A program made the position numbers and the translations under genes. The notes beneath the pieces are model-generated. The model did no database searches and was not told where the DNA came from. It saw only the letters and a program-made list of their open reading frames with translations. A stretch of DNA of 64,000 nt from Balanoglossus misakiensis (taxonomy: Eukaryota; Animalia; Hemichordata), in assembly GCA_040954595.2 (NCBI GenBank), contig CM082592.2, positions 1,178,001 through 1,242,000 of the forward strand, read 5' to 3'. This document shows, in pieces, positions 1 through 56,116 of this stretch. Position 1 is the first letter of the stretch; every line of letters starts with the position of its first letter.

Positions 1-3000
1 TTGAAATTTTACTAAGGTTTTACGAAAATCCAATATGGCCGCCATAATCTTCGACCAATCACAAAGATCTTCGCAAACTTGATAGACATCAGATAGGTGA
101 CTACATACCCTAAACCCCGTGTCTCGGTTATCACCAGTTCTAGAGAAGAAGATTTTTGAAATTTAAGCCGGATTTCAGAAAAAAAATTGTAGCAAAAAAA
201 CTGCAACATTGACAGCAAAATATCCAATTACAAAAATGATGGGTAGAAGGTAGACTACCTGCACACCAAATTTGAAGTCGATCTGACTTGTAGTTTCTGA
301 GATCTAAGATTTGCATTTTTTCAGAAAATCCAATATGGCCGCCAGGTCACGTGACCAATTAAAAATTCAAGGGTTCAATGCACATCTACTCATTGACCTT
401 GACCACTGTAGCAAGTTTCAGAAGTGTACCTGCAGCGGTGTCTGAGATCTAGAGCGACAAAGAATTGACACAAGAAAAAAGAAAGAAAGAAAGAAAGAAA
501 GACAGAAAAACCCCAACGAAACCAATAGGGCCCAAGCGCTGGCTTGCGCTTGGGCCTTAATTAAAGCTGCAAGCAGCATTGTCCGGGCCCAAGCTCTATT
601 ATCTGATCAGATTATTAGATATGCACATAATTAATGAGTAGAAACATAATGCTGTGTTTTATCCCATGAAATATCAAGGTTATATCTATGTTTGGTGCTG
701 ATATAGTGTTAAGTAGGTCAAAGGTCATCTGAGGTCACCCAAAATTTGTGCAGAAAATTTTGACCCATAGTGGTCCATGTCCAACAAAAACCAGACCTCT
801 AGCCCTTTTGGTTAGCCCGGAATTAGGTATGCACATAAATAGTGAGTAAAGCAGGCGTCACAGGTGACCCAAAACTTTGGCTTTTCATTATGGCCCCATA
901 CCTCCAAATGCCAAGGCTGTGCCTGCTTTGGATGCTGAGATATGCAAAAGTAGGTCAAAGGTCATCTGAGGTCATCCAAAATTTGGGCAAAAAATTTTGA
1001 CCCCATACTGGTCCATGTCCAACAAAAACCAAACCTCTAGCTCAATTGGTTCGCCTGTAATTAGCTATGCACATAATTAATGAGGTCAGCAGAGGTCAAA
1101 GGGGTCATGAAAAGTAGCAAAATATTTTGATCACACACTAATCCACATGCATCAAAAACAAAACGTCTAGCCCTATAGGTTAGCCTGGAAATAGATATGC
1201 AGAAATAATAATGTGTGAAAAGTAGGTCAAAGGTCATGTGAAAAATCGCCAAAAATTTGTAACATATTGTAGTCATATGACGATTGATATCCATAAAAAG
1301 AATTTGTATGCTATTAATTTTTATACTAGAAAAAGGAATTTTAATTTTTCACTGCTTTTTACAAAATCCAATATGGCCGCCATAATCTTCGACCAATCAC
1401 ATTCCTCTTCCCAAACTTGATAGACATCTGTTTAATGAACACACACACCAAATCTTGCGACTCGGTTATCGCCGGTTCTTGAGAAGAAGATTTTTGAAAT
1501 TTTACTAGGGTTTTTCGAAAATCCAATATGGCCGCCATAATCTTCGACCAATCACAATGATCTTCGCAAACTTGATAGACATCAGTTAGGTGACCACATA
1601 CCCCAAACCCCGTGTCTCGGTTATCACCGGTTCTGGAGAAGAAGATTTTTGAAATTTAAGCCAGATTTCAGAAAAAAAATTGTAGCAAAAAAACTGCAAC
1701 TTTGTCAGCATAATTTCCAATTACAAAAATGATTGACAGAAGGTAGTCTACCTGCACGCCAAATTTGAAGTTGATCTGACTTGTAGTTTCTGAGATCTGA
1801 GATTTGCATTTTTTCAGAAAATCCAAGATGGCCGCCAGGTCATGTGACTAATTAAAAATTCATGGGTTCAATGCACGACTACTCATTGACCTTGACCACT
1901 GTAGCAAGTTTGAGAACTGTACCTGCAGTGGTGTCTGAGATCTAGAGCGACAAAGAATTGACAGAAGAATAAAGAAAGAAGAAAGAAAGAAAGAATTAAA
2001 GCTGCAAGCAGCATTGTCCGGGCCCAAGCTCTATTATCTGATCTGATTATTAGATATGCACATAATTAATGAGTAGAAACATAATGCAGTGTTTTATCCC
2101 ATGAAATATCAAGGTTATATCTATGTTTGGTGCTGATATAGTGTTAAGTAGGTCAAAGGTCACCCAGGGGTCACCCACAATTTGGGCAGAATATTTTGAC
2201 CCATAGTGGTCAATGTCCAACAAAAACCAGACCTCTAGCCCTTTTGGTTAACCCGGAATTAGGTATGCACATAAATAATGCGTAAAGCAGGTGTCACAGG
2301 TGACCCCACAACTTTGGCTTTTCATTATGGCCCCATACCTCCAAACGCCAAGGTTGTACCTGCTTTGGATGCTGAGATATGCAAAAGTAGGTCAAAGGTC
2401 ATCTGAGGTCACCCAAAATTTGGGTAGAAAATTTTGACCCGTAGTGGTCCATGTATAACAAAAACAAAACCTCTAGGTCTATTGGTTCATCTGTAATTAG
2501 GTATGTGCATATTTAATGAGTAAAGCAGGTGTCACAGGTGACCCAAAACTTTGGCTTTTCATTATGGCCCCATACCTCCAAACGCCAAGGCTGTATCTGG
2601 TGTGGATGTCGAGATATGCAAAAGTAGGTCAAAGGTCACCCGAGGTCACCCAACATTTGGGCAAAATATTTTGACCCCATACTGGTCCATGTATAACAAA
2701 AACAAAACCTCTAGGTCTATTGGTTCATCTGTAATTAGGTATATGCATATTTAATGAGGTCAGCAGAGGTCAAAGGGGTCATGAAAAGTAGCAAAATTTT
2801 TTGATCACATACAAATCCACATACATCTAAAACCAAACTTATAGCCCTATTGGTTAGCCAGGAATTAGATATGCAGAAAAATGATGCGTCAAAAGTAGGT
2901 CAAAGGTCATTGCCAAAATTACCAAAATATTTATAGCTTATTCTTGTCATATGATGATTCATATCCATAAAAAGAATTTCTGTGCTATCAATTTTTAGGC

Positions 3001-6000
3001 TAGAAACAGAATTTTTACTTTTTAATCGTTGTTCACAAAATCTAATATGGCCGCCAAAATCTTCGACCAATCACAATGATCTTCGCAAACTTGATAGACA
3101 TCTGTTTAATGACCACACACACCAAATCTTGTGACTCGGTTATCGCCGGTTCTTGAGAAGAAGATTTTTGAAATTTTACTAGGGTTTTTCGAAAATCCAA
3201 TATGGCCGCCATAATCTTCCACCAATCACAATGATCTTCGCAAACTTGATAGACCTCAGTTTGGTGACCACATACCCCAAACCGCGTGACTCGGTTATCG
3301 CCGGTTCTGGAGAAGAAGATTTTTGAAATTTTGACCAGATTTCAGAAAAACAACTGTAGCAAAAAAACTGCAACATTGACAGCAAAATATCCAATTACAA
3401 AAATGATGGGTAGAAGGTAGACTACCTGCACACCAAGTTTGAAGTCGATCTGACTTGTAGTTTCTGAGATCTGAGATTTGCATTTTTTCAGAAAATCTAA
3501 TATGGCCGCCAGGTCACGTGACTAATTAAAAATTCAAGGGTTCAATGCACATCTACTCATTGACCTTGACCACTGTAGCAAGTTTGAGAAGTGTACCTGC
3601 AGTGGTGTCTGAGATCTAGAGCGACAAAGAATTGACACAAGAATAAAGAAAGAAGAAAGAAGAATTAAAGCTGCGAGCAGCATTGTCGGGCCCAAGCGCT
3701 GATCTTGAATTATATATGCACAGTATGAATGAGAAGAAACAGAATTTTCTATCGGATGTATTATCTCATGACATAACAAGGATGTGTGTATTTTTGCTGC
3801 TGAAATAGGGTGAAGTAGGTCAAAGGTCACCTGAGGTCACCCACAATTTGGGCAATTTTTTTTACCCATACTGGTCCATGTCCAACAAAAACCAAAAGTC
3901 TAGCTCTATTGGTTCGCCTGTAATTAGGTATGTGCATATTTAATGAGATCAGCAGGTGTTACAGGTGACTCAAAAATGTGGCTTTACATTTTGGTCCCAT
4001 TCTGCCAAATGCCAAGGCTGTATCTGCGCTGGATGCTGAGATATGCGAAAGTAGGTCAAAGGTCACCAGAGGTCACCCAATATTTGGGCAACAAATTTTG
4101 ACCCCATATTGGTCCATGTCCAACAAAAACCAAACCTCTAGCTCTATTGGTTCACCTGTAATTAGCTATGCACATAATTAATGAGGTCAGCAGAGGTCAA
4201 AGGGGTCATGAAAAGTAGCAAAATATTTTGATCACACACAAATCCACATGCATCAAAAACCAAATGTCTAGCCCTATAGGTTAGCCTGGAAATAGATATG
4301 CAGAAATAATAATGTGTGAAAAGTAGGTCAAAGGTAATGTGAAAAATCGACAAAAATTTGTAACATATTTTAGTCACATGATGATTGATATCCATAAAAA
4401 GAATTTCTATGCTATCAATTTTTAGACTAGAAAAAGAAATTTCAATTTTTCACTGCTTTTTACAAAATCCAATATGGCCGCCATATTTTTCGACCAATCA
4501 CAATGCTCTTTGCAAACTTGATAGACATCAGTGTAGTGACCTCACTCACCGAATCTTGCGACTCAGTTATCGACCGTTCTGGAGAATAAGATTTTTGGAG
4601 TTTAACTATGGTTTTTCGAAAATCCAATATGGCCGCCATAATCTTCGACCAATCACAATGATCTTCGCAAACTTGATAGACATCAGTTAGGTGACCACAT
4701 ACCCCAAACCGCGTGTCTCGGTTATCACCGGTTCTGGAGAAGAAGATTTTTGAAATTTAAGCCAGATTTCAGGAAAAAAATTGTAGCAAAAAAACTGCAA
4801 CTTTTACAGCATAATTTCCGATTACAAAAATGATGGGCAGAAGGTAGTCTACCTGCATGCCAAATTTGAAGTCGATCTGACTTGTAGTTTCTGAGATCTG
4901 AGATTTGCATTTTTTCAGAAAATCCAATATGGCCGCCAGGTCACGTGACTAATTAAGTATTCACAAGTCACTGCACATCTACTCATTGACCTTGACCACT
5001 GTAGCAAGTTTGAGAAGTGTACCTGCAGTAGTTTCAGAGATCTCGTTGGCCGAAGAATTGACACAAGAATAAAGAAAGAAAGAAAGAAAGAAAGAATTAA
5101 AGCTGCGAGCAGCATTGTCGGGCCCAAGCGCTGATCTCGAATTATATATGCACAGTATGAATGAGAAGAAACAGAATTTTCTATCGGATGTATTATCTCA
5201 TGACATATCAAGGACGTGTGTATTTTTGCTGCTGAAATAGGGTGAAGTAGGTCAAAGGTCACCTGAGGTCACCTAACATTTGGGAAAGAATTTTTGACCC
5301 ATACTCGTCCATGTCCAACAAAACTCAAAACTCTAGCTCTATTGGTTCGCCTGTAATTAGGTATGTGCATATTAAATGAGGTCAGCAGGTGTCACAGGTG
5401 ACCCAAAAATTTGGCTTTACATTAAGCTCCCATCCTGCCAAATGCCAAGGCTGTATCTGCTCTGGATGCTGAGATATGCGAAAGTAGGTCAAAGGTCACA
5501 TACGGTCACCCTATTTTTGGCCCAAATTGTTTGACCCCATACTAGTCATGGTAAGTGTCCAACAAAAAACAAACGTCTAGCCCTATTGGTTCACCGGGCA
5601 TTGATGTCAATAATTAATGAGGTCACTTGTGAGAAACCCATTAGGCGTTCCATCCCTACAAATGACAAGTCTGTATCTGCTCTGGATACCGATATATGAA
5701 AAAGTAGGTCAAAGGTCACCTAAAATTTGGGCAAAATTTTTTGACCCCATACTAGTCAATGTCCAACAAAAACCAAAACTCTAGCTCTATTGGTTTGCCT
5801 GTAATTAGGTATGTGCATATTTAATGAGGTCAGCAAGTGTCACAGGTGACCCAAAAATGTGGCTTTACATTTTGGTCCCATCCTGCCAAATGTCATGGCT
5901 GTATCTGCTCTGGATGCTGAGATATGCGAAAGTAGGTCAAAGGTCACCAGAGGTCACCCAAAATTTGGGCAAACAATTTTGATCCCATACTGGTCCATGT

Positions 6001-6965: not shown

Positions 6966-7277
6966 GAAAAATTCCAACGAAACCAATAGGGCCCAAGCGC
7001 TTGCTTGCGCTTGGGCCCTAAAAATTCCAACGAAACCAATAGGGCCCAAGCGCTTGCTTGCGCTTGGGCCCTAAAGAAGGAAAGACAGAAAAACCCCAAC
7101 GAAACCAATAGGGCCCAAGCGCTGGTATGCGCTTGGGCCCTAAAGAAAGAAGAAAGAAGGAAAGACAGAAAAACCCCAACGAAACCAATAGGGCCCAAGC
7201 GCTGGTATGCGCTTGGGCCCTAAAAAACCCAGACGAAACCAATAGGGCCCAAGCGCTGGTATGCGCTTGGGCCCTAA
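6966..7277. repeat. Stack of 5 hairpin caps (2 TTGCTT, 3 TGGTAT)
   Basis: ~53 bp units AACGAAACCAATAGGGCCCAAGCGC-6nt-GCGCTTGGGCCCTAA, some separated by GAAA remnants. Confidence 0.95.
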
Positions 7278-11547: not shown

Positions 11548-13038
11548 AATTAAAGCTGCGAGCAGCATTGTCGGGCCCAAGCGCTGATCTTGAATTATAT
11601 ATGCAAAGTATGAATGAGAAGAAACAGAATTTTCTATCGGATGTATTATCTCATGACATAACAAGGATGTGTGTATTTTTGCTGCTGAAATAGGGTGAAG
11701 TAGGTCAAAGGTCACCTAAGGTCACCCAACATTTGGGCAATTTTTTTTGACCCATACTGGTCTATGTCCAACAAAAACCAAAACTCTAGCTCTTTTGGTT
11801 CAGATGTAATTAGGTATGTGCATATTTAATGAGGTCAACAGGTGTCACAGGTGACCCAAAAATGTGGCTTTACATTTTGGTCCCATCCTACCAAATGCCA
11901 TGGCTGTATCTGCTCTGGATGCTGAGATATGCGAAAGTAGGTCAAAGGTCACCAGAGGTCACCCAACATTTGGGCAAAAAATTTTGATCCCATACTGGTC
12001 CATGTCCAACAAAAACCAAACCTCTAGCTCTATTGGTTCGCCTGTAATTAGCTATGCACATAATTAATGAGGTCAGCTGAGGTCAAAGGGGTCATGAAAA
12101 GTAGCAAAATATTTTGATCACACACTAATCCACATTCATCAAAAACCAAACGTCTAGCCCTATAGGTTAGCCTGGAATTAGATATGCAGAAATAATAATG
12201 CGTGATAAGTAGGTCAAAGGTCATGTGAAAAATCGCCAAAAAATTGTATAATATTTTAGTCACATGACGATTGATATCCATAAAAAGAATTTGTATGCTA
12301 TCAATTTTTAGACTAGAAAAAGGAATTTCAATTTTTCACTGCTTTTTACAAAATCCAATATGGCCGCCATAATCTTCGACCAATCACAATGCTCTTTGCA
12401 AACTTGATAGACATCAGTGTAGTGACCATACTCCCCGAATCTTGCAACTCAGTCATCTCCCGTTCTGGAGAAGAAGATTTTTGGAGTTTAACTATGGTTT
12501 TTCGAAAATCCAATATGGCCACCATAATCTTCGACCAATCACAATGATCTTCGCAAACTTGATAGACATCAGTTAGGTGACCACATACCCCAAACCCCGT
12601 GTCTCGGTTATCACCGGTTCTGGAGAAGAAGATTTTTGAAATTTAAGCCAGATTTCAGAAAAAAAATTGTAGCAAAAAAACTGCAACATTGACAGCAAAA
12701 TTTCCAATTACAAAAATGATGGGTAGAAGGTAGTCTACCTGCATGCCAAATTTGAAGTCGATCTGACTTGTAGTTTCTGAGATCTGAGATTTGCATTTTT
12801 TCAGAAAATCCAATATGGCCGCCAGGTCACGTGACTAATTAAGTATTCACAAGTCACTGCACATCTACTCATTGACCTTGACCATTGTAGCAAGTTTGAG
12901 AAGTGTACCTGCAGTAGTTTCAGAGATCTCGTTGGCCGAAGAATTGACACAAGAATAAAGAAAGAAAGAAAGAAAGAAAGAAAGAAAAATTCCAACGAAA
13001 CCAATAGGGCCCAAGCGCTTGCTTGCGCTTGGGCCCTA
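11548..13038 (-). mobile_element. Uninterrupted single copy, subfamily B
   Basis: Head ..GGGCCCAAGCGCTGATCTTG, tail CTCGTTGGCCGAAGAATTGACAC, (GAAA)n, cap AAAAATTCCAACG.. with loop TTGCTT. Confidence 0.8.
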
Positions 13039-13222
13039 AAGAAAGAAAGCAAGCAAGAAAGAAAAATTCCAACGAAACCAATAGGGCCCAAGCGCTTGCG
13101 TGCGCTTGGGCCCTAAAAATTCCAACGAAACCAATAGGGCCCAAGCGCTTGCTTGCGCTTGGGCCCTAAAAATTCCAACGAAACCAATACGGGCCCAAGC
13201 CTGGCTTGGCTTGGGCCCGTAA
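12985..13222. repeat. Stack of 4 hairpin caps (3 B-type, 1 D-type)
   Basis: Loops TTGCTT, TTGCGT, TTGCTT, then TACGGGCCCAAGCC-TGGCTT-GGCTTGGGCCCGTA. Confidence 0.95.
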
Positions 13223-15527: not shown

Positions 15528-16294
15528 GGCTAGTTATACTTTGCGAAACAACGAAACAGCGAAACGACGAAACCATTATTAAAATAGGGGCCAGTCATCA
15601 AGACGGTGGCGTATGATTTTTTTAAAAGTTTCCAAATTAAAACGTAAGCGAGCCAAGAAAACTACAGGTCAGATAAATTGTTTTCTCGGAAATTCAACAT
15701 TAGAATTTGGCGTTGGAAACAAACGGCGGGTCGCCAGTTCCTGGTCTGCGGCCTGGTACTATGTAGTGGTAGAGTCGACGTCGTGTGCGCGCAAACGATT
15801 CATGCCAAACTGCTACATATACACAGTGAATATACGCGCGCGCACAACGAAACCACAAAAGATCGAAACCTCAAAATGCGGCAGCAACTGACACTATTTC
15901 CTTAAATACCACAAGGCGGGGAGGCATGAATTGCAATTAAGATAATAAAGAAATTTCGACAATGATACTGTGTTGTGTGAGTTACATGTGTTTCTATATA
16001 TAACTACTACTCTTACCCCCCATCAGTGTTTGACCCTCGAAAGCTTACGGACACTACTGCTTTGTTTCAACTAATCCCTAGCCCTGTGAATATACTCGTA
16101 CATTGACCTTTTGGGGCGGGATTCTTTTTTGGCGCGCAACCACTAGTACCAGGCCGCAGACCAGGAACTTATTTGGAAACTTTAAAAAAAAATAATACGC
16201 CACCGTCTTGATGACTGGCCCCTATTTTAATAATGGTTTCGTCGTTTCGCTGTTTCGTTTCGCTGTTTCGTTGTTTCGCAAAGTATAACTAGCC
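15528..16294. mobile_element. 767 bp MITE with ~100 bp TIRs and 9 bp TSD (Mutator- or Merlin-like)
   Basis: TIR GGCTAGTTATACTTTGCGAAACAACGAAACAGCG.. mirrored at ~16180-16294. TSD CTAAACTTG at 15519-15527 and 16295-16303 (7 bp TAAACTT if the termini are GGG/CCC). Empty site GAGACTAAACTTGTGCC at ~36584 in the paralogous copy. Confidence 0.92.
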
Positions 16295-16957: not shown

Positions 16958-16989
<32 letters not shown>

Positions 16990-16993
16990 GAAG

Positions 16994-17172
16994 AAAAACC
17001 CCAGTAATACCAATAGGGCCCAAGCCTGCTGGGCTTGGGCCCTAAGAAGAAGAAGAAGTAGAAGAAAAACCAGGATAATAACAATAGGGCCCAAGCGCTG
17101 CATGCGCTTGGGCCCTAAAAAACCCCAACGAAACCAATAGGGCCCAAGCGCTTGCGTGCGCTTGGGCCCTAA
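16994..17172. repeat. Stack of 3 hairpin caps
   Basis: Caps at ~16994, 17066 and 17117. Confidence 0.95.
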
Positions 17173-20029
17173 TTAAAGCTGCAAGCAGCATTGTCCGGGC
17201 CCAAGCTCTATTATCTGATCAGATTATTAGATATGCACATAATTAATGAGTAGAAACATAATGCTGTGTTTTATCCCATGAAATATCAAGGTTATATCTA
17301 TGTTTGGTGTTGATATAGTGTTAAGTAGGTCAAAGGTCACCAAGAGGTCACCCACAATTTGGGCAGAAAATTTTGATCCATAGTGGTCCATGTCCAACAA
17401 AAACCAGACCTCTAGCCCTTTTGGTTAGCCAGGAATTAGGTATGCACATAAATAATGAGTTAAGCAGGTGTCAAAGGTGACCCAAAACTTTGGCTTTTCA
17501 TTATGGCCCCATACCTCCAAACGCCAAGGTTGTATCTGCTGTGGATGTCGAGATATGCAAAAGTAGGTCAAAGGTCACCCGAGGTCACCCAACATTTGGG
17601 CAAAATATTTTGACCCCATACTGGTCCATGTATAACAAAAACAAAACCTCTAGGTCTATTGGTTCATCATTAATTAGGTATGCGCATATTTAATGAGGTC
17701 ACCAGAGGTCAAAGGGGTCATGAAAAGTAGCAACATTTTTTGATCACATACAAATCCACATACATCAAAAACCAAACTTATAGCCCTATTGGTAAGCCTG
17801 GAATTAGATATGCAGAAAAATGATGCGTCAAAAGTAGGTCAAAGGTCATTGCCAAAATTACCAAAATATTTATAGCTTATTCTTGTCATATGATGATTCA
17901 TATCCATAAAAAGAATTTCTGTGCTATCAATTTTTAGGCTAGAAAAGGAATTTTTACTTTTTAATCGTTTTTCACAAAATCCAATATGGCCGCCATAATC
18001 TTCGACCAATCACATTCCCCTTCGCAAACTTGATAGACACCTGTTTAATGACCACACACACCAAATCTTGTGACTCGGTTATCGCCCGTTCTTGAGAAGA
18101 AGATTTTTGAAGTTTTACTATGGTTTTTCGAAAATCCAATATGGCCGCCATAATCTTCGACCAATCACAATGATCTTCGCAAACTTGATAGACATCAGTT
18201 AGGTGACCAAATACCCCAAACCGCGTGATTCAGTTATCACCGGTTCTGGAGAAGAAGATTTTTGAAATTTAAGCCAGATTTCAGAAAAAAAATTGTAGCA
18301 AAAAAACTGCAACATTTACAGCAAAATATCCAATTACAAAAATGATGGGTAGAAGGTAGACTACCTGCACACCAAATTTGAAGTCGATCTGACTTGTAGT
18401 TTCTGAGATCTGAGATTTGCATTTTTTCAGAAAATCCAATATGGCCGCCAGGTCACGTAACTAATTAAAAATTCACAGGTTCAATGCACGACTACTCATT
18501 GACCTTGACCACTGTAGCAAGTTTCAGAAGTGTACCTGCAGCGGTGTCTGAGATCTAGAGCGACAAAGAATTGACACAAGAATAAAGAAAGAAGAAAGAA
18601 TTAAAGCTGCAAGCAGCATTGTCCGGGCCCAAGCTCTATTATCTGATCTGATTATTAGATATGCACATAATTAATGAGTAGAAACATAATGCTGTGTTTT
18701 ATCCCATGAAATATCATGGTTATATCTATGTTTAGTGCTGATAAAGTGTTAAGTAGGTCAAAGGTCACCCAGAGGTCACCCATAATTTGGGCAGAAAATT
18801 TTGACCCATAGTGGTCCATGTCCAACAAAAACCAGACCTATAGCACTTTTGGTTAGCCCGGAATTAAGTATGCACATAAATAATGAGTTAAGCAGGTGTC
18901 ACAGGTGACCCACAACTTTGGCTTTTCATTATGGCCCCATACCTCCAAACGCCAAGGCTGTATCTGCTGTGGATGCTGATATTTGCAAAAGTAGGTCAAA
19001 GGTCACCAGAGGTCACCCAACATTTGGGTAAAATTTTTTGACCCCATACTAGTCCTGTCCAACAAAAACAAAACCTCTAGGTCTATTGGTTCGCCTGTAA
19101 TTAGCTATGCACATAATTAATGAGGTCAGCAGGGGTCAAAGGGGTCGTGAAAAGTAGCAAAAAATTTTGATCACACACTTATCCACATACATCAACAACC
19201 AAACTTATAGCCCTATTGGTTAGCCTGGAATTAGATATGCAGAAAAATGATGCGTCAAAAGTAGGTCAAAGGTCATTGCCAAAATTACCAAAATATTTAT
19301 AGCATATTGTAGTCATATGATGATCCATATCCATAAAAAGAATTTCTGTGCTATCAATTTTTAGGCTAGAAAGGGAATTTTTACTTTTTAATCGTTTTTC
19401 ACAAAATCCAATATGGCCGCCATAATCTTCGACCAATCACATTCCTCTTCGCAAACTTGATAGACATCTGGTGAATGACCACACACACAAAATCTTGTGA
19501 CTCGGTTATCACCGGTTCTCGAGAAGAAGATTTTTGAAATTTTACTAGGGTTTTTCGAAAATCCAATATGGCCGCCATAATCTTCGACCAATCACAATGC
19601 TCTTCGCAAACTTGATAGACATCAGTTAGGTGACCACATACCCCAAACCCCGTGTCTCGGTTATCACCGGTTCTAGAGAAGAAGATTTTTGAAATTTAAG
19701 CCAGATTTCAGAAAAAAAATTGTAGCAAAAAAACTGCAACATTGACAGCATAATTTCCAATTACAAAAATGTTTGACAGAAGGTAGTCTACCTGCACGCC
19801 AAATTTGAAGTCGATCTGACTTGTAGTTTCTGAGATCTGAGATTTGCATTTTTTCAGAAAATCCAAGATGGCCGCCAGGTCATGTGACTAATTAAAAATT
19901 CATGGGTTCAATGCACGACTACTCATTGACCTTGACCACTGTAGCAAGTTTGAGAACTGTACCTGCAGTGGTGTCTGAGATCTAGAGCGACAAAGAAATG
20001 ACAGAAGAATAAAGAAAGAAGAAAGAAAG

Positions 20030-26628: not shown

Positions 26629-26948
26629 AAAAACCCCAACGAAACCAATAGGGCCCAAGCGCAAGCAAGCGCTTGGGCCCTAAAAATTCCAACGAAACCA
26701 ATAGGGCCCAAGCGCTTGCTTGCGCTTGGGCCCTAAAAATTCCAACGAAACCAATAGGGCCCAAGCGCTTGCTTGCGCTTGGGCCCTAAAAACCCCAACG
26801 AAACCAATAGGGCCCAAGCGCTGGTATGCGCTTGGGCCCTAAAAACCCCAACGAAACCAATAGGGCCCAAGCGCTGGTATGCGCTTGGGCCCTAAAAACC
26901 CCAACGAAACCAATAGGGCCCAAGCGCTGGTATGCGCTTGGGCCCTAA
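26629..26948. repeat. Stack of 6 hairpin caps (3 B-type, 3 A-type)
   Basis: 53 bp period; loops AAGCAA, TTGCTT, TTGCTT, TGGTAT x3. Confidence 0.95.
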
Positions 26949-29900
26949 AGAAAGCAAGAAAGAATTAAAGCTGCAAGCAGCATTGTCCGGGCCCAAGCTC
27001 TATTATCTGATCTGATTATTAGATATGCACATAATTAATGAGTAGGAACATAATGCTGTTTTATCCCATGAAATATCAAGGTTATATCTATGTTTGGTGT
27101 TGATATAGTGTTAAGTAGGTCAAAGGTCACCCAGAGGTCACCCACAATTTGGGCAGAAAATTTTGACCCATAGTGGTCCATGTCCAACAAAATCCAGATC
27201 TCTAGCCCTTTTGGTTAGCCCGAAATTAGGTATGCACATAAATAATGAGTTAAGCAGGTGTCACAGGTGACCCAAAACTTTGGCTTTTCATTATGGCCCC
27301 ATACCTCCAAACGCCAAGGCTGTATCTGCTGTGGATGTCGAGATATGCAAAAGTAGGTCAAAGGTCATCCGAGGTCACCCAACATTTGGGCAAAAAAATT
27401 TGACCCAATACTGGTTCATGTCCAACAGAAACCAAACATCTAGGTCTATTGGTTCATCTGTAATTAGGTATGCGCATATTTAATGAGGTCAGCTGAGGTC
27501 AAAGGGGTCATGATAAGTAGCGAAATTTTTTGATCACATACAAATCCACATACATCAAAAACCAAAATCATAGCCCTATAGGTTAACCTGGAATTAGATA
27601 TGCAGAAAAAAACGATGTGTCAAAAGTAGGTCAAAGGTCATTGCCAAAATTACCAAAATATTTGGGGTAGGTCCTGGCAGGGATGATACCAATGTGCACA
27701 AAAATCAGAACTTTGGTACATTTAGAACACGTAGTATGAGCTATATATGCATATATGCAGGTTCTTAAAAAAAGTAGGTCAAAGGTCATGTGAAAATTTC
27801 CAAAATATTTGCAACATATTCTAGTCATATCACGACTCATATCCATAAAAAAAATTTGTATGCTATCTATTTTTAGACTAGAAAAATGATTTCTTAATTT
27901 TCGCTGGTTTTTACAAAATCCAATATGGCCGCCATAATCTTCGACCAATCACAACGCTCTTCGCAAACTATATAGACATCAGTTAGGTGATGTCATACCC
28001 TAAATCCCATGACTCGGTTATTGCCGGTTCTTGAGAAGAAGATTTTTGAAGATTTTACTGTACTTTTTCGAAAATCCAATATGGCGGCCAAAGTCACGTG
28101 ACCGCTCAGGATTTTATTGTCAAACTTTGAAGGGCAGAGGACATGTGTACCATACACCAAATTTGAACTTGATTGGCCCTGTGGTTTTTGAGAAGAAGCC
28201 ATTTAAAGATTTTCAGAAAATCCAATATGGCCGCCAGGTCACGTGACTAATTAAATATTCACAAGCCACTGCACATCTACTCATTGACCTTGACCACTGT
28301 AGCAAGTTTGAGAAGTGTACCTGTAGCCGTTTCAGAGATCTAGGAGAGCAAAGATTGACATAAGAATAAAGAAAGAAATATAGCTGCAAGCAGCAATAGC
28401 GGGCCCAAGCCAACATAGCACACAGCAACATAGCAATAAGCATATCTGCTCAGGATGCCAAGATATGGTAAAGTAGGTCAAAGGTCAACTGAGGTCATGT
28501 TATTTTTGGGCAAGAAATTTTTACCGTATACTGGTCCATGTTCAACAAAAACCAAACCTATAGCCCTATTGGTTAGCCTGGAATTAGGTATGCACATAAT
28601 TAATGAGATATGCAGGTGCCACAGGTGACCCCCAATTTTGGCTTTTCACTTTCAGTCCTAACCCTCCAAACGCCAAGTTTGTACCTGCTCTGGATGCCAA
28701 GATATGGTAAAGTAGGTCAAAGGTCACCTGAGGTCATGCAAAATGTGGGCAAGAAATTTTGACCCTATACTGGTCCATCTTCAACAAAAACCAAACCTAT
28801 AGCCCTATTGGTTAGCCTGGAATTAGGTATGCACATAATTAATGAGATAGGCAGGTGTCACAGGTGACCCCCAATTTTGGCTTTTCAATTTTAGTCCCAA
28901 CCCTCCAAACGCCAAGTCTGTACCTGCTCTGGATGCCAAGATCTGGTAAAGTAGGTCAAAGGTCACCTGAGGTCATGCAAAATTTGGGCAAGAAATTTTG
29001 ACCCTATACTGGTCCATGTTCAACAAAAACCAAACCTGTAGCCCTATTGGTTAGCCTGGAATTAGGTATGCACATAATAAATGAGTTAAGCAGGTGTTAC
29101 AGGTGAGCCTAAAATTGTGCCTTTTATTTTGGTGCCATTGTGCTCACTCACCAATAGACAGTCACTGTACAGGACTATTGCGCAGACCAGAATTCCACAA
29201 TAAGAAGTGGACATAGCTTAACTATGGAGGTATAAGTAAAGGTTTAAATTTAATAAAAAAATTAATATAAAAAAATCGGTTGATTTTTCATATTATTTTT
29301 TTTCGCTTAAAATGATTAACAAATGCTAGGCTAGCTGCACAGCAACTTTGGAATTGATCGGCCGAACAGATTTTGAGATATGTATGTATATTTATCCAAA
29401 ATAGTCTGTGGTCATAGCTTAACTATGTCAAGTATAGGCCCATGGCTTGGGCGAAAAATATGGAAAATAATACTTAAAAATCTTCTTCTCAAAATTGACA
29501 TGGCTTATGGCCTTGACATTTGGCATGTAGAACCCTGGCCATATGGTCCACAAAGCATCTGAACAGAATTTTGATATCTCCATTCATATGCAAATTAAGC
29601 CAAATTGAAAATTTTGCCCATATATGGTCATCAGGTCACATGACTAATTACACATTCACAAGGGTACTGCACAAGCTCTCATAGGCCTGCACCATTGTGC
29701 CAAATGTGAGATTTGTAGGTTCAGCCGTTTTCAAGATCTAGCTGGACAAAAAAACGACACAAGAAGAAGTAGAAGAAATATAGCTGCAAGCAGCAATAGC
29801 GGGCCCAAGCCAACATATCACATAGCACATAGCAACATAGCAATAAGCATATCTGCTCTGGATGCCAAGATATGGTAAAGTAGGTCAAAGGTCACCTGAG

Positions 29901-30944
29901 GTCATGCAAAATTTGGGCAAGAAATTTTGACCCTATACTGGTCCATGTTCAACAAAAACCAAACCTATAGCCCTATTGGTTAGCCTGGAATTAGGTATGC
30001 ACATAATTAATGAGGTAGGCAGGTGTCACAGGTGATCCCCAATTTTGGCTTTTCAATTTTAGTCCCAACCCTCCAAACGCCAAGTCTGTACCTGCTCTGG
30101 ATGCCAAGATCTGGTAAAGTAGGTCAAAGGTCACCTGAGGTCACCCAAAATTTGGGCAAGAAATTTTGACCCTATACTGGTCCATGTCCCACAAGAACGA
30201 AACCTCTAGCCCTCTTCGTTAGCTCAGAATTAGGTATGCACATAATTAATGAGTTAAGCAGGTGTTACAGGTGAGCCTAAAATTTTGCCTTTTATTTTGG
30301 TGCCATTGTGCTCACTGACATATAGATAGTCACTGTACAAGACTATTGCACAGACCAGAATTCCACAATAAGACATGGACATAGCTTAACCATAGAGGTA
30401 TAAATAAAGGTATAAATTTAATAAAAAAATTAATATAAAAAAATCGGTCGATTTTTCATATTATTTTTTTCCGCTTAAAATTATTGACAAATGCTAGGCT
30501 AGCTGCACACCAAAGTTGGAGATGATCGGCCTAACAGATTTTGAGATATGTATGCATATTTATCCAAAATAATATGTTGTCATAGCTTAACTATGTAAAG
30601 TATAGGCACATGGCTTGGGCGAAAAATATGAAAAATAATACTTAAAAATCTTCTTCTCAAAATTGACATGGCCTATGGCCTTGACATTTGGCATGTAGAA
30701 CCCTGGCCATGTGGTCCACAAAGCATCTGAACAGAATTTTGATATCTCAATTCATATGCAAATTAGGCCGATTTGAAAATTTTGCCCATATATGGTCATC
30801 AGGTCACATGACTTATTAAACATTCACAAGGGTACTGCACCAGCTCTCATTGGCCTGCACCATTGTGCTAAGTTTGAAATTGGTAGGTTCAGCCGTTCTC
30901 CAGATCTACCTGGCCGAAAAAACTACACAAGAAGAAGTAGAAGA

Positions 30945-32646
30945 AAATATAGCTGCAAGCAGCAATAGCGGGCCCAAGCCAACATAGCACATAGCAACAT
31001 AGCAATAAGCATATTTGCTCTGGATGCCAAGATATGGAAAATTAGGTCAAAGGTCACCTGAGGTCATGCAAAAATTTGGGCAAGAAATTTTGATCCTATA
31101 CTAGTCCATGTTCAACAAAAACCAAACCTATAGCCCTATTGGTTAGCCTGGAATTAGGTATGCACATAATTAATGAGATATGCAGGTGTCACAGGTGACC
31201 CCCAATTTTGGCTTTTCAATTTTAGTTCCAACCCTCCAAACTCCAAGTCTGTACCTGCCCTGGGTGCCAAGATATGGTAAAGTAGGTCAAAGGTCACCTG
31301 AGGTCATGCAAAATTTGGGCAAGAAATTTTGACCCTATACTGGTCCATGTTCAACAAAAACCAAACCTATAGCCCTATTGGTTAGCCTGGAATTAGGTAT
31401 GCACATAATTAATAAGATATGCAGGTGTCACAGGTGACCCCCAATTTGGCTTTTCAATTTTAGTCCCAACCCTCCAAACGCCAAGTCTGTACCTGCCCTG
31501 GGTGCCAAGATATGGTAAAGTAGGTCAAAGGTCACCTGAGGTCATGCAAAATTTGGGCAAGAAATTTTGACCCTATACTGGTCCATGTTCAACAAAAACC
31601 TAACCTATAGCCCTATTGGTTAGCCTGGAATTAGGTATGCACATAATTAATGAGGTATGCAGGTGTCACAGGTGACCCCAAATTTTGGCTTTTCAATTTT
31701 AGTCCTAACCCTCCAAACGCCAAGTCTGTACCTGCTCTGGATGCCGAGATATAGGAAAGTAGGTCAGAGGTCACCTGAGGTCACCCAAAATTTGGGCAAG
31801 AAATTTTGACCCTATACTGGTCCATGTCCCACAAGAACGAAACCTCTAGCCCTCTTAGTTAGCCCAAAATTAGGTATGCACATAATTAATGAGTTAAGCA
31901 GGTGTTACAGGTGAGCCTAAAATTGTGCCTTTTATTTTGGTGCCATTGTGCTCACCGACCAATAGACAGTCACTGTACAGGACTATTGCACAGACCAGAA
32001 TTCCACAATAAGACATGGACATAGCTTAACCATAGAGGTATAAGTAAAGGTATTATTTAATAAAAAAATTAATATAAAAAAATCGGTCGATTTTTCATAC
32101 TATTTTTTTTCGCTTAAAATTATTGACAAATGCTAGGCTAGCTGCACACCAAAGTTGGAGATGATCGGCCTAACAGATTTTGAGATATGTATGCATATTT
32201 ATCCAAACTAATATGTGGTCATGGCTTTACTATGGAAAGTATAGGCCCAGGGCTGGGTGAAAAAATATGAAAAATAATACTTACAAATCTTCTTCTCAAA
32301 ATTGGCATGGCCAATGGCCTTGACATTTGGCATGTAGGACACTGACCACATGGTCCGCAAAAGTTGCTAAAAGAATTTTGATATCTCCATTCATATGCAA
32401 ATAAGGCCGATTTGAAAATTTTGCCCATATATGGTCATCAGGTCATGTGACTAATTAAACATTCACAAGGGTACTGCACTAGCTCTCATTGACCTGCACC
32501 ATTGTGCCAAGTTTGAAATTGGTAGGTTTAGCAGTTTTCCAGATGTAGCTCACCAAAAAAACGACAGAAGAAGAAGAAGAAGAAGAAGAAAAAGAAAAAC
32601 TCCAGTAAAAACAATAGGGCCCAAGCCTGCTGGGCTTGGGCCCTAA
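30945..32646 (-). mobile_element. Uninterrupted single copy, subfamily C
   Basis: Head AATATAGCTGCAAGCAGCAATAGCGGGCCCAAGCCAAC, ~239 bp internal tandem repeats, (GAA)n tract, cap with loop CCTGCTGGG at 32596-32645. Confidence 0.8.
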
Positions 32647-35600
32647 ATATAGCTGCAAGCAGCAATAGCGGGCCCAAGCCAACATAGCACATAGCACATA
32701 GCAACATAGCAATAAGCATATTTGCTCTGGATGCCAAGATATGGTAAAGTAGGTCAAAGGTCACCCGAGGTCAAGCAAAATTTGGGCAAGAAATTTTGAA
32801 CCTATACTGGTCCATGTTCAACAAAAACCAAACCTATAGCCCTATTGGTTAGCCTGGAATTAGGTATGCACATAATAAATGAGATATACAGGTGTCACAG
32901 GTGACCCCAATTTTGGCTTTTCAATTTTAGTCCCAACCCTCCAAACGCCAAGTCTGTACCTGCTCTGGATGCCGAGATATAGGAAAGTAGGTCAAAGGTC
33001 ACCTGAGGTCACCCAAAATTTGGGCAAGAAATTTTGACCCTATACTGGTCCATGTTCAACAAAAACCAAACCTATAGCCCTATTGGTTAGCCTGGAATTA
33101 GGTATGCACATAATAAATGAGATATACAGGTGTCACAGGTGACCCCCATTTTGGCTTTTCAATTTTAGTCCCAACCCTCCAAACGCCAAGTCTGTACCTG
33201 CTCTGGATGCCGAGATATAGGAAAGTAGGTCAAAGGTCACCTGAGGTAACCCAAAATTTGGGCAAGAAATTTTGACCCTATACTGGTCCATGTCCGACAA
33301 GAACGAAACCTCTAGCCCTCTTAGTTAGCCCAGAATTAGGTATGCACATAATTAATGAGTTAGGCAGGTGTTACAGGTGAGCCTAAAATTGTGCCTTTTA
33401 TTTTGGTCCAATTGTGCTCACTGACCAATAGACAGTCACTGTACAGGACTATTGCACAGACCAGAATTCCACAATAAGAAATGGACATAGCTTAACCATA
33501 GAGGTATAAGTAAAGGTATACATTTAAAAAAAAAATTAATATCAAAAAATCGGTCGATTTTTCATATTATTTTTTTTTGCTTAAAATTATTGACGAATGC
33601 TAGGCTAGCTGCACACCAAAGTTGGAGATGATCGGCCTAACAGATTTTGAGATATGTATGCATATTTATCCAAAATAATATGTGGTCATAGCTTTACTAT
33701 GTAAAGTATAGGCCCATGGCTTGGGCGAAAAATATGGAAAATAATACTTAAAAATCTTCTTCTCAAAATTGACATGGCTTATGGCCTTGACGTTTGGCAT
33801 GTAGAACCCTGGCCATATGGTCCACAAAGCATCTGAACAGAATTTTGATATCTCCATTCATATGCAAATTAGGCAAAATTGAAAATTTTGCCCATATATG
33901 GTCATCAGGTCACATGACTAATTAAACATTCACAAGGGTACAGCTCATGCTCTCAGAGGCCTGCACCACTGTGCCAACTTTGAGATTTGTAGGTTCAGCC
34001 GTTTTCAAGATCTACTTGACGAAAAAAACTACACAAGAAGAAGAAGAAATATAGCTGCAAGCAGCAATGGCGGGCCCAAGCCAACATAGCACATAGCAAC
34101 ATAGCAATAAGCATATCTGCTCTGGATGCCAAGATATGGAAAAGTAGGTCAAAGGTCACCTGAGGTCATGCAAAATTTGGGCGAGAAATTTTGACCCTAT
34201 ACTGGTCCATGTTCATCAAAAACCAAACCTATAGCCCTATTGGTTAGCCTGGAATTAGGTATGCACATAATTAATGAGGTAGGCAGGTGTCACAGGTGAC
34301 CCCCCAATTTGGCTTTTTAATTTTAGTCCCAACCATCTAAACGCCAATTCTGTATCTGCTCTGGATGCCAAGATATGGTAAAGTAGGTCAAAGGTCACCT
34401 GAGGTCATGCAAAATTTGGGCAATAAATTTTGACCCTATACTGGTCCACGTTCAACAAAAACCAAACCTATAGCCCTATTGGTTAGCCTGGAATTAGGTA
34501 TGCACATAATTAATGATGTAGGCAGGTGTCACAGGTGACCCCCAATTTTGCCTCTTCAATTTTAGTCCCAACGCTCCAAACGCCAAGTCTGTACCTGCTC
34601 TGGATGCCAAGATCTGGTTAAGTAGGTCAAAGGTCACCTGAGGTCATACAAAATTTGGGCAAGACATTTTGACCCTAAACAGGTCCATGTTCAACAAAAA
34701 CCAAACCTATTGCCCTATTGGTTAGCCTTGAATTAGGTATGCACATAATTAATGAGATATGCAGGTGTCACAGGTGACCCCCTTTTTGGCTTTTCAACTT
34801 TAGTCCCAACCCTCCAAACGCCAAGTATGTACCTGCTCTGGATGCCGAGATATAGGAAAGTAGGTCAAAGGTCACCTGGGGTCACCCAAAATTTGGGCAA
34901 GAAATGTTGACCCTATACTGGCCCATGTCCCACAAGAACGAAACCTCTAGCCCTCTTAGTTAGCCCAGAATTAGGTATGCACATAATTAATGAGTTTAGC
35001 AGGTGTTACAGGTGAGCCTAAAATCGTGCCTTTTATTTTGGTGCTATTGTGCTCACTGACCAATAGACAGTCACTTTACAGGACTATTGCACAGACCAGA
35101 ATTCCACAATAAGACATGGACATAGCTAAACCATAGAGGTATAAGTAAATGTATAAATTTAATAAAAAAATTAATATAAAAAAATCGGTCGATTTTTCAT
35201 ATTATTTTTTTTCGCTTAAAATTATTGACAAATGCTAGACTAGCTGCACACCAAAGTTGGAGATGATCGGCCTAACAGATTTTGAGATATGTATGCATAT
35301 TTATCCAAAATAATATGTGGTCATAGCTTTACTATGTAAAGTATAGGCCGATGGCTTGGGCGAAAAATATGGAAAATAATACTTAAAAATCTTCTCCTCA
35401 AAATTGACATGGCCTATGGCCTTGACATTTGGCATGTAGAACCCTGGCCATATGGTCCACAAAGTATCTGAACAGAATTTTGATATCTCAATTCATATGC
35501 AAATTAGGGCGATTTGAAAATTTTGCCCATATATGGTCATCAGGTCACGTGACTAATTAAACATTCACGAGGGTACTGCACCAGCTCTCATTGGCCTGCA

Positions 35601-35696
35601 CCATTGTACTAAGTTTGAAATTGGTAGGTTCAGCCGTTCTCCAGATCTAGCTGGACAAAAAAACGACACAAGAAGAAGAAGAAGAAGAAGTAGAAG

Positions 35697-37244
35697 AATA
35701 TAGCTGCAAGCAGCGATGACGGGCCCAAGCTTAAGCCGAAGGTCAAAGGTCATAAGCGGTCACCCGAAATTTTGGCAAGAAATTTTGACCCCATACTGGT
35801 CCGTGTCCCACAAGAACGAAATCTCTAGCCCTATTGGTTCGCCTACAATTAGGTATGCGCATAATTAATGAGATAAAGTGTAAGGCTCCATCAGGAGTTC
35901 CATCCCTCCAAATGCCAAGGCTGTATCTGCTGTGGATGCCGAGATATGGTAAATTAGGTCAAAGGTCACCTGAGGTCACCCAAAATTTGGGCAAAAAATT
36001 TTGACCCCATACTGGTCCATGTTCAGCATAAATCAAACCTCTAGCCCTATTGGTTAGCCTGGAATTAGGTATGCACATAATTAATGAGATAAGCAGGTGT
36101 CACAGGTGACCCCAATTTTGGCTTTTCAATTTTAGTCCCAACCCTCCAAACGCCAAGTCTGTACCTGCTCTGGATGCGGAAATATAGGAAAGTAGGTCAA
36201 AGGTCACCTGAGGTCATCCAAAATTTAGGCAATTTTTTTTAACCCCATACTGGTCCATGTCCCACAAGCACGAAACCTCTAACCCTACTGGTTAGCCTGT
36301 AATTAGGTATGCACATAATTAATGAGATATGCAGGTGTCACAGGTGACCCCCATTTTGGCTTTTCAACTTTAGTCCCAACCCTCCAAACGCCAAGTCTGT
36401 ACCTGCTGTGGATGCCGAGATATAGGAAAGTAGGTCAAAGGTCACCTGAGGTCACCCAAAATTTGGGCAAGAAATTTTGACCCTATACTGGTCCATGTCT
36501 CACAAGAACGAAACCTCTAGCCCTCTTAGTTAGCCCAGAATTAGGTATGCACATAATTAATGAGTTAAGCAGGTGTTACAGGTGAGACTAAACTTGTGCC
36601 TTTTATTTTGGTGCTATTGTGCTCACTGACCAATAGACAGTCACTGTACAGGACTATTGCACAGACCTGAATTCCACAATAAGACATAGACATAGCTTAA
36701 CCATAGAGGTATAATTAAAGGTATAAATTTAATAAAAAAATTAATATAAAAAAATCGGTCGATTTTTCATATTATTTTTTTTCGCTTAAAATTATTGACA
36801 AATGCTAGGCTAGCTGCACACCAAAGTTGGAGATGGTCGGCCTAACAGATTTTGAGATATGTATGCATATTTATCCAAAATACGATGTGGTCATAGCTTT
36901 ACTATGTGAAGTATAGGCCGATGGCTTGGGCGAAAAAAATATGAAAAATAATACTTAAAAATCTTCTTCTCAAAATTGACATGGCCTATGGCCTTGACAT
37001 TTGGCATGTAGAACCCTGGCCATATGGCCCACAAAGTATCTTAACAGAATTTTGATATCTCCATTCATATGCAAATTAGGCCAAATTGAAAATTTTGCCC
37101 ATATATGGTCATCAGGTCACATGACTAATTACACATTCACAAGGGTACTGCACCAGCTCTCATAGCCCTGCACCATTGTGCCAAATGTGAGATTTGTAGG
37201 TTCAGCCGTTTTCAAGATCTAGCTGGACAAAAAAACGACACAAG

Positions 37245-37276
<32 letters not shown>

Positions 37277-37332
37277 GAAGAAAAACCCCAGTAATACCAA
37301 TAGGGCCCAAGCCTGCTGGGCTTGGGCCCTAA
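35697..37332 (-). mobile_element. Uninterrupted subfamily C-prime copy, near-identical to 14627-17045 minus the MITE
   Basis: Diagnostic head GCAGCGATGACGGGCCCAAGCTTAAGCCG, shared only with the copy at 14627; same tail and cap. Confidence 0.85.
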
Positions 37333-37585
37333 AAAAAGCCAGTAATACCAATAGGGCCCAAGCCTGCTGGGCTTGGGCCCTAAAAACTCCAGCAAAAACA
37401 ATAGGGCCCAAGCCTGCTGGGCTTGGGCCCTAAAAAGCCAACAATACCAATAGGGCCCAAGCCTGCTTGGCTTGGGCCCTAAAAACCCCAGTAATACCAA
37501 TAGGGCCCAAGCCTGCTGGGCTTGGGCCCTAAAAACTCCAACGAAACCAATACGGGCCCAAGCCTGGCTTGGCTTGGGCCCGTAA
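37281..37585. repeat. Stack of 6 hairpin caps (5 C-type, 1 D-type)
   Basis: Five ~50 bp caps with AAGCCTGCT(G/T)GGCTT, then one D-type cap. Confidence 0.95.
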
Positions 37586-45001: not shown

Positions 45002-45384
45002 AAAAACCCCAACGAAACCAATAGGGCCCAAGCGCTGCTGTGCGCTTGGGCCCTAAAAACCCCAACGAAACCAATAGGGCCCAAGCGCTGCTGTGCGCTT
45101 GGGCCCTAAAGAACCCCAACGAAACCAATAGGGCCCAAGCGCTGCTATGCGCTTGGGCCCTAAAAACCCCAACGAAACCAATAGGGCCCAAGCGCTGGTA
45201 TGGGCTTGGGCCCTAAAAATTCCAACGAAACCAATACGGGCCCAAGCCTGGCTTGGCTTGGGCCCGTAAAAAATTCCAACGAAACCAATACGGGCCCAAG
45301 CCTGGCTTGGCTTGGGCCCGTAAAGAAAGAAAAACCCCAACGAAACCAATACGGGCCCAAGCCTGGCTTGGCTTGGGCCCGTAA
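45002..45384. repeat. Terminal stack of 7 hairpin caps closing the cluster
   Basis: Loops TGCTGT x2, TGCTAT, TGGTAT, then 3 D-type caps; unrelated repeat follows. Confidence 0.95.
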
Positions 45385-55882: not shown

Positions 55883-56116
55883 TGAAAAAAATGTACATTG
55901 GTATAAAACATTGGAGTATTTTTACATGTGAAATATTTTATTTATCGTTGGTAAAATTTCCCATTACAGCAAACCCCTGTTTTCCGATCAAAGTGTCTTT
56001 GTTTACAAGTTGAAAATAGTTCCGGTTGGGGACGTCAGAGGGATGGTAATTACAATAACGCTTGGTGCAAATTTACCTACGTCTGACGTCATACTATGGT
56101 ATATGCGGAGCTATGT

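What the first reader, a model, noticed from the sequence alone, without database searches (positions are those of the whole stretch)
1..45384. The apparent satellite is a balanced-parenthesis nest of a self-targeting mobile element
Treat each head as an opening bracket and each cap as a closing bracket; every stack then closes the open bodies in last-in-first-out order with matching subtype. Heads 559A, 1994A, 3663B, 5095B are closed by 2 B caps then A caps (+1 extra). Heads 8690, 10123, 11548 (B) are closed by 3 B caps (+1). Heads 13221 and 14627 get 2 caps (+1). Heads 17171A, 18599A, 21205A, 22328B, 23766B, 25192B get exactly 3 B then 3 A caps. Head 26963 plus five open C copies get exactly 5 C caps then 1 D cap. 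Heads 37584 and 39173 get 2 caps. Heads 40701, 42128, 43565 get 3 TGCT(G/A)T caps (+4). Seen: the counts and subtypes. Inference: each copy carries its own target tract between body and cap, so every insertion provides a new landing site. That builds a >45 kb array nested at least 11 deep, which stores a partial insertion order. Unequal crossing-over would not keep bodies and distant caps balanced. I cannot tell from the sequence whether this has been described.
Basis: partly seen in the sequence, partly recalled or inferred. Interest (0 to 1): 0.95.

Follow-up and report, generated by a model that had tools for sequence, protein, structure and literature searches.

The report
Rolling-circle transposons nested inside themselves
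This 45-kb block that looks like a satellite is a set of about 1.5-kb non-coding repeats nested one inside another, all facing the same way; they are likely rolling-circle transposons that jumped again and again into one spot beside the front end of earlier copies, so repeat arrays could grow by self-insertion and keep an inferred record of arrival order.

Summary
The bracket structure is real. Window 1-45384 holds 29 heads and 37 caps, all on one strand. Last-in-first-out pairing closes 29 of 29 heads and leaves 8 caps unmatched. Tail and cap sequences agree better than permuted pairings. One-base slips at 4 left junctions are offset at the predicted right junctions 1.5-6.5 kb away. On the minus strand the unit has Helitron2/HINE anatomy: 5' hairpin (cap), microsatellite, central tandem repeats, 3' inverted repeat plus hairpin (head). 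Insertion is at T|T without duplication; empty-site paralogues confirm the outer right end. Corrections: the main target is the T-run at the foot of the 5' hairpin (28 of 36 internal sites), not the microsatellite (8); none lies in 41 kb of body. Six levels are shown; eleven assumes parents upstream of the window. About half of single unequal exchanges would go unseen, and divergence does not confirm age order. No read spans the array. Self-insertion of Helitrons is proposed in print; this deep, site-focused nest was not found in 8 searches, though unchecked scan notes report it in other genomes.

The parts
1..45383 (-). Nested array of non-coding Helitron2/HINE-like elements (begins upstream of the window)
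11550..13037 (-). Example of an intact innermost element (subtype B), 1.49 kb
11550..11582 (-). 3' end of the element ('head'): subterminal inverted repeat GCTTGGGCCC 23-25 nt from the end, then the small hairpin GCTGC-TY-GCAGC
12343..12646 (.). Central 155-bp tandem repeat (two copies); 238-bp repeats lie nearer the head and vary in number between copies
12957..12987 (-). (TTTC)n microsatellite, (TTC)n in subtype C; secondary landing site (8 of 36)
12985..13037 (-). 5' end ('cap'): hairpin carrying the inverted repeat (14-bp stem in the A and D caps folded), then about 17 nt and the T5 run that is the main landing site (28 of 36)
6967..7275 (-). Cap stack: 2 B, 2 A, 1 unmatched A
12985..13220 (-). 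Cap stack: 3 B, 1 unmatched D
16994..17170 (-). Cap stack: 2 caps closing C bodies, 1 unmatched
17173..26946 (-). Six-deep chain fully inside the window: 17173>18601>21207>22330>23768>25194, with side copy 20032
26965..37583 (-). Six-deep chain fully inside the window: 26965>28378>29778>32647>34049>35698, with side copy 30947
45002..45383 (-). Last cap stack: 3 E, 1 unmatched A, 3 unmatched D; outermost 5' end at about 45383
45384..45407 (+). Host sequence right of the outermost end; empty-site paralogues read AAGAATAAATTC at about 50284 and 52015
15528..16294 (.). Foreign 767-bp element with terminal inverted repeats and a 9-bp target duplication, inside copy 14629 (absent from its 99.8% identical twin 35698)

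Best explanation
The block is a nest of about 1.5-kb non-coding elements with Helitron2/HINE anatomy, likely built by at least 36 separate same-direction insertions, made by an inferred rolling-circle transposase encoded elsewhere, into T|T sites that each resident copy carries within about 60 bases of its 5' hairpin. SHOWN: typed bracket nesting; one orientation; site use (28 at the hairpin-foot T-run, 8 in the microsatellite, 1 in host DNA, 0 in the bodies); no target duplication; the T-run site reappears in front of both the new and the old cap after each insertion, which accounts for nests and for head-to-tail siblings alike. INFERRED (about 0.85): the copies arrived one at a time, mostly from other loci, moved by a RepHel protein. 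INFERRED (about 0.5): the site is chosen because the transposase binds the resident 5' hairpin and cuts the first T-run after it; the inner arm sits 20-21 nt from the cut, much as the 3' inverted repeat sits 23-25 nt from the element's 3' end, so the cap may mimic a terminus. Nesting order would then give a partial order of arrival.
For: 29 of 29 heads close by LIFO. Tail-cap concordance: 0 of 20,000 global and 54 of 20,000 within-stack permutations reach it. Caps predicted from the 10 self-contained copies fit the 19 interrupted copies: 7 exact, 13-14 within 2 differences; 0 of 100,000 global and 341-519 of 100,000 within-stack permutations do as well. Junction bookkeeping: 15 of 15 parents cut at the cap A-run restore the same length, including all 4 with a shifted left junction (p 1.8e-4 global, 0.025 within stacks); three junctions with a single A exclude an AA duplication. 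The parent is the child's closest copy in only 2 of 21 or 3 of 21; 14629 and 35698 are 99.8% identical but sit in different parents 21 kb apart. 0 insertions among 583 same-strand and 454 opposite-strand runs of four or more in 41,156 nt of body. Empty-site paralogues. Anatomy and the TTTT|T/C target match published Helitron2/HINE features. The family is very abundant in two contig sets of one sample of organism A.
Against: Divergence does not confirm that parents are older: 11 vs 8 and 8 vs 11. No read or contig spans a nested junction or the array (skipped the cap region). No autonomous partner seen and no genome held. 8 of 37 caps have no visible body; the last three D caps are nearly identical and could be cap-only duplicates. 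About half of single adjacent unequal exchanges would be invisible to a coarse parse. Two caps (26651, 17087) match no other copy. Within-stack rank support is weak in three stacks. One locus only.
Confidence: 0.85

Rival explanations
1. Satellite-type growth: bodies (1.4 kb) and caps (53 bp) were amplified separately by unequal crossing-over or slippage from a small nested seed, and the balance is partly chance.
For: Same subtypes are adjacent (16 of 21 parent-child pairs share a tail cluster); 42129 and 43567 are 99% identical neighbours; the final D caps are nearly identical; 12-16 of 28-36 adjacent exchanges leave a coarse parse intact; mosaic copies (A or B head with E tail) show that recombination occurs.
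Against: Neighbours are closest copies in only 2-3 of 21; fine-subtype caps match tails up to 7.7 kb away (28378 with 37503; 37586 with 40670); 4 of 4 shifted junctions are offset at the predicted distant cap.
Confidence: 0.07
2. Local hopping or composite copying: each new copy is made from a resident of the same array and lands beside its own 5' end, or nested blocks move as units (the Fusarium model of chimeric excision gives extra 5' ends).
For: Subtype assortment (16 of 21, permutation mean 4.9); 6 of 6 children of C parents are C; parent is the nearest tail in 3 of 21; a cap excess of 8 is what chimeric excision predicts (PMC5148889).
Against: Most children have a closer copy elsewhere in the array than their parent and differ 2-10% from it; no duplicated nested block was seen; assortment also follows from waves of activity or subtype-specific targeting.
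Confidence: 0.15
3. No special targeting: the general TTTT|T/C preference of Helitron2 plus chromatin context accounts for the sites.
For: All 15 matched cap-run junctions fit TTTT|T or TTTT|C, the rule reported for Helitron-1N1_CRe; the outermost copy landed at a T|T of an unrelated repeat.
Against: 583 equally suitable runs in the bodies and 244 in the adjoining 18.6 kb are unused, and no copy lies in the opposite orientation despite 454 + 248 runs.
Confidence: 0.1
4. Assembly artefact from a high-copy repeat family.
For: The family is extremely abundant and fragments short-read contigs; no spanning read was seen.
Against: Copies are distinct (mostly 90-98% alike); mis-joins would not give typed LIFO order with single-base bookkeeping across kilobases; about 55% of sampled words of 37200-46700 occur in two runs of one sample, which may be the source sample.
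Confidence: 0.03

Closest known systems
HINE / DINE-1 non-autonomous Helentrons (Thomas et al. 2014, PMC4067079; oyster Cg_HINE, PMC7492417; passages seen)
   Same: Subterminal inverted repeats, short inverted repeat beside the 5' one, microsatellite, central tandem repeats, 3' stem-loop, TT target, no target duplication, no coding capacity.
   Different: The passages seen describe dispersed copies; none describes insertion focused on the element's own 5' end, or deep nests.
Helitron2 (Bao and Jurka 2013, PMC3627910; passages)
   Same: Asymmetric terminal inverted repeats, 5' repeat 0-2 bp from the end and in a hairpin, 3' repeat 20-30 bp from the end before a hairpin; insertion between TTTT and T/C.
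   Different: No self-targeting reported in the passages seen; no RepHel partner identified here.
FoHeli self-insertion in Fusarium (PMC5148889, passages) and nested maize Helitrons with multiple termini (PMC3288121, passages)
   Same: Self-insertion near an end is proposed to give stacked termini.
   Different: There, one or a few cases or inferred intermediates with unbalanced ends; here at least 36 internal events at one locus, one orientation, balanced ends left in place, six levels shown.
SaTar microsatellite-targeted MULE arrays of guayule and rice (PMC5907723; abstract and section 19); double insertion at one site as a seed of satellites (McGurk and Barbash, seen only as summarised in PMC12628747)
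   Same: Arrays built by repeated insertion into a regenerated target.
   Different: SaTar arrays are explicitly non-nested and are MULEs; here the target lies inside the element, so the array nests.
Lepidopteran helitron-like family that disrupts (GAAA)n microsatellites (Coates et al. 2010; title only, in a reference list; paper not held)
   Same: By its title, a Helitron-like element associated with GAAA repeats.
   Different: Cannot be judged; the text was not seen and may bear on novelty.

Membership tests
Helitron2/HINE (HLE2) non-autonomous element | 5' inverted repeat 0-2 bp from the 5' end, folded into a hairpin | tested here: met
   14-bp stems, -18.9 and -18.6 kcal/mol for an A and a D cap, starting 1-2 nt from the end
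Helitron2/HINE (HLE2) non-autonomous element | 3' inverted repeat (8-15 bp) about 20-30 bp from the 3' end | tested here: met
   GCTTGGGCCC, 10-13 bp complementary to the 5' arm, 23-25 nt from the end; 28 of 29 heads exact, 1 with one mismatch
Helitron2/HINE (HLE2) non-autonomous element | Short 3' hairpin after the inverted repeat | tested here: met
   GCTGC-TY-GCAGC in 29 of 29 heads; folds weakly, -3.0 and -5.0 kcal/mol in the two heads folded
Helitron2/HINE (HLE2) non-autonomous element | Insertion at T|T or TTTT|T/C with no target duplication | tested here: met
   15 of 15 cap-run junctions balance; three single-A junctions exclude an AA duplication; empty-site paralogues
Helitron2/HINE (HLE2) non-autonomous element | 5'-terminal T | tested here: inconclusive
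   Two extra T per insertion are shown, but they may sit one at each end or both at the 5' end
DINE-1 / Cg_HINE type | Microsatellite after the 5' hairpin, then central tandem repeats | tested here: met
   (TTTC)n or (TTC)n tract; 155-bp and 238-bp repeats
Helitron2/HINE (HLE2) non-autonomous element | No coding capacity | tested here: met
   Only nine ORFs of 101-132 aa start in the array, most across caps; no Rfam match in 11540-17200
Helitron2/HINE (HLE2) non-autonomous element | Termini shared with an autonomous RepHel-coding partner | not testable with these tools
   No genome held; the five flank ORFs scanned are not RepHel
Helentron (as distinct from Helitron2) | Partner transposase carries an AP-endonuclease domain | not testable with these tools
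   No partner available
MITE (cut-and-paste) | Symmetric terminal inverted repeats and a fixed target duplication | tested here: not met
   Repeats are asymmetric and no duplication fits the single-A junctions
Helitron1 | 5'-TC and CTRR-3' ends | tested here: not met
   Ends read (T)AGGG or (T)ACGG and TTTAA(T) or TATAT(T)
Classical satellite DNA | Head-to-tail monomers with neighbours most alike | tested here: not met
   Only 8 of 29 heads directly follow a cap; neighbour is closest copy in 2-3 of 21

The most novel reading that the evidence does not exclude
Animal Helitron2/HINE elements home to their own 5' hairpin, which acts as a docking signal that mimics a terminus, so every copy is a self-renewing landing pad. 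This is a general, undescribed way to build satellite-like arrays by insertion, in which the nest records the order of subfamily waves and may show subfamily-specific targeting.
Probability: 0.4. Interest if true: 0.75.

Novelty: new variant of a known kind. Interest (0 to 1): 0.55.

Why it matters
How Helitron2/Helentron transposases choose targets is open; published rules stop at TT or TTTT|T/C. Here 36 of 36 internal insertions fall within about 60 nt of a resident 5' hairpin while over 1,000 similar T-runs in the same elements are unused, which gives a sharp, testable targeting hypothesis. It also gives a route to satellite-like DNA by insertion, and an array whose history can be parsed. 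Such blocks would be annotated as satellite or as fragments by standard tools. The element type and the idea of self-insertion are known, which limits the surprise.

Tried and rejected
Whole-genome parse: no genome held. Age order from divergence: no signal (rho 0.19, p 0.32; 11 vs 8; private substitutions 8 vs 11). Typed-parse shuffle (1 of 200,000): not used as evidence, because cap labels came from the pairing itself. Other loci: 2 metagenome contigs share only a 33-bp head with the C subtype, each preceded by an AT-rich tract, and end within 70 nt of it, so they are uninformative about nesting; 24 of 24 viral-contig matches to a looser pattern lack the element context; 0 matches in prokaryote genomes. 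Reads: contigs of X1 and X2 (one sample) confirm abundance but the tract and cap were skipped; X4 holds little and raw run X6 none; a read-level test of the junctions is therefore open. Runs X3, X5 and X7-X24 gave no result. Rfam: none. Flank ORFs are Harbinger-like DDE, a below-cutoff QRICH1-domain match and LINE fragments, not RepHel. AA target duplication rejected. No earlier scan note on this genome or by sequence.
Full report
Setting. The window is animal-type DNA of about 39% GC full of mobile-element remains; no whole genome is held. A run search finds the region in two contig sets of one sample of a coded 'organism A' (55% and 54% of 651 sampled words; possibly the source sample). Laid on one element, these give 7,859 and 3,829 short contigs at very high depth, so the family is abundant genome-wide.

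Observation. Regex parsing finds 29 heads and 37 caps in 1-45384; all heads are on the + strand and no head or cap lies beyond. A stack parser closes 29 of 29 heads and leaves 8 caps unmatched (528, 7245, 13191, 17140, 45184, 45238, 45292, 45353). Two chains are six deep inside the window. Depth 11 for copy 5097 follows only if the seven later unmatched caps close bodies upstream.

Tests of pairing. (a) Tail (250 nt) versus cap distance over 29 pairs: rho 0.789; global permutations 0 of 20,000; within-stack 54 of 20,000; reversed order 0.645; nearest-downstream-cap pairing 0.730. Per stack, LIFO is a top-scoring order in four of seven multi-cap stacks; in three it is not (94 of 720, 4 of 6, 1 of 2 orders score higher). 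(b) Out-of-sample: caps were predicted from the 10 uninterrupted copies for the 19 interrupted ones; summed differences 44-46 against permutation means of 102 (global, 0 of 100,000) and 63-64 (within stack, 341-519 of 100,000). All 7 cases with an exact cap match have tails within 6 differences in 250 nt; 10125 is a miss (near-identical tail, 6 cap differences). (c) Junction bookkeeping, independent of subtype: for the 15 of 19 parents whose last child sits at the cap A-run, left A count plus right linker length is 24 in 14 and 25 in the one D cap, which is 1 nt longer. Four left junctions deviate (1, 1, 1 and 3 A instead of 2) and each is offset at the LIFO-predicted right junction 1.5-6.5 kb away (p 1.8e-4 global, 0.025 within stacks). 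The other four parents rebuild normal tracts.

What the unit is. On the minus strand it reads: 5' hairpin with a 14-bp stem containing GGGCCCAAGC; about 17 nt; T5; (TTTC)n or (TTC)n; body with 155-bp and 238-bp tandem repeats; GCTTGGGCCC; hairpin GCTGC-TY-GCAGC; 3' end. This is the anatomy given for Helitron2 (PMC3627910, passages), DINE-1/HINE (PMC4067079, passages and section 6), oyster Cg_HINE (PMC7492417, passages) and HLE2 (PMC11417382, passages). Each insertion adds two T; with one T at each end all 15 cap-run junctions read TTTT|T or TTTT|C, the rule reported for Helitron-1N1_CRe. Single-A junctions exclude an AA duplication. The outermost right end continues into a 1.7-kb tandem unit whose other copies show the empty site. 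No autonomous partner was seen, so membership rests on anatomy and target site.

Targeting. Of 37 caps, 21 are followed directly by a cap, 8 directly by a head, 7 by tract and 1 by host. Following the sibling chains, 7 of the 8 head links end at a cap run, giving 28 sites at the hairpin-foot T-run, 8 in the tract and 1 in host DNA. The bodies (41,156 nt) hold 583 same-strand runs of four or more and 454 on the other strand; none is used. Bodies do accept insertions: copy 14629 carries a 767-bp inverted-repeat element with a 9-bp duplication. After an insertion the TTTT|T site stands again before the parent's cap and a new one comes with the child, so one rule yields both nests and head-to-tail siblings (sequence). 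Why this run is chosen is inferred, not shown: the inner hairpin arm lies 20-21 nt from the cut, close to the 23-25 nt between the 3' inverted repeat and the 3' end, so a transposase bound to the resident hairpin could treat it as a terminus. Exposure of single strands at a resident's 5' end during its own copying is an alternative I cannot separate. Children share the parent's tail cluster in 16 of 21 pairs (permutation mean 4.9, 0 of 20,000), which could reflect waves of activity, subtype-specific targeting or local hops.

Against simple duplication. The parent is the child's closest copy in 2 of 21 by full alignment and 3 of 21 by BLAST. Twins 14629 and 35698 (99.8%) are both innermost, in different parents. 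However, about half of single unequal exchanges between adjacent like units would leave a coarse parse intact, so a minor role, above all for unmatched caps, is not excluded. Divergence does not confirm parent-before-child; the order rests on the logic of nesting. No read spans the junctions: the first lay skipped the tract and cap, so this test remains open.

Literature. Self-insertion giving multiple termini is proposed for Fusarium FoHeli (PMC5148889, passages) and maize Helitrons (PMC3288121, passages), and invoked for Paramecium Helitrons that sit in telomeric repeats in one orientation (PMC13085455, passages). A review covers rolling-circle tandems, double insertion and shuffled oyster loci (PMC12628747, passages). 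SaTar arrays are microsatellite-targeted but non-nested (PMC5907723, abstract and section 19). The Xenopus (PMC12001565) and oyster (PMC8268682) passages describe tandem arrays, not self-nests. Eight searches gave no description of a deep, balanced, same-orientation nest aimed at the element's own 5' end. Subscription journals, Repbase reports and supplements were not seen; Coates et al. 2010 was seen by title only and may bear on this. Four unchecked scan notes report like nests in other genomes; they are leads, not support, but suggest the pattern is not unique to this locus.

Verdict. Observation confirmed; interpretation supported with corrections; a new variant of a known kind; interest 0.55.

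Noticed in passing
window 15528-16294: 767-bp element with long terminal inverted repeats and a 9-bp target duplication (Mutator-like by recalled criteria) inside copy 14629; absent from twin 35698.
   Followed up: partly
window 45384-53740: Tandem array of a 1.7-kb unit (88-92% alike) with internal 81/162-bp repeats; it is the host of the nest's outermost end.
   Followed up: partly
window 45633-47025: Element with about 340-bp inverted repeats (84% alike) interrupting the first 1.7-kb unit.
   Followed up: no
window 57108-57773 (-): 221-aa frame matching DDE_Tnp_4, E 1.5e-33; Harbinger-like by recall; next to 18-21-bp minisatellites at 57801-58113.
   Followed up: no
window 55430-55921 (-): 163-aa frame with a below-cutoff QRICH1-domain match, E 7.4e-7; possibly a Crypton-related remnant (recalled link, untested).
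   Followed up: no
window 58709-61753: Inverted arrays of a 155/156-bp repeat about 690 bp long at each end of a 3-kb segment; not compared with the 155-bp repeat of the nest.
   Followed up: no
window 62375-63982 (-): Broken LINE-like reverse transcriptase frames; zf-RVT, E 7.3e-9.
   Followed up: no
window 37586, 40703, 42129, 43567: Mosaic copies: A or B heads joined to one E-type tail and cap; 26965 and 7278 have A heads with divergent tails. Recombination between subtypes during or before transposition.
   Followed up: partly
L001 71-103 and L002 2889-2921: Two contigs of one metagenome record carry a 33-bp head 94% identical to the C-subtype head, each preceded by an AT-rich tract, with unrelated bodies; the terminus may be conserved across distant animals.
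   Followed up: partly
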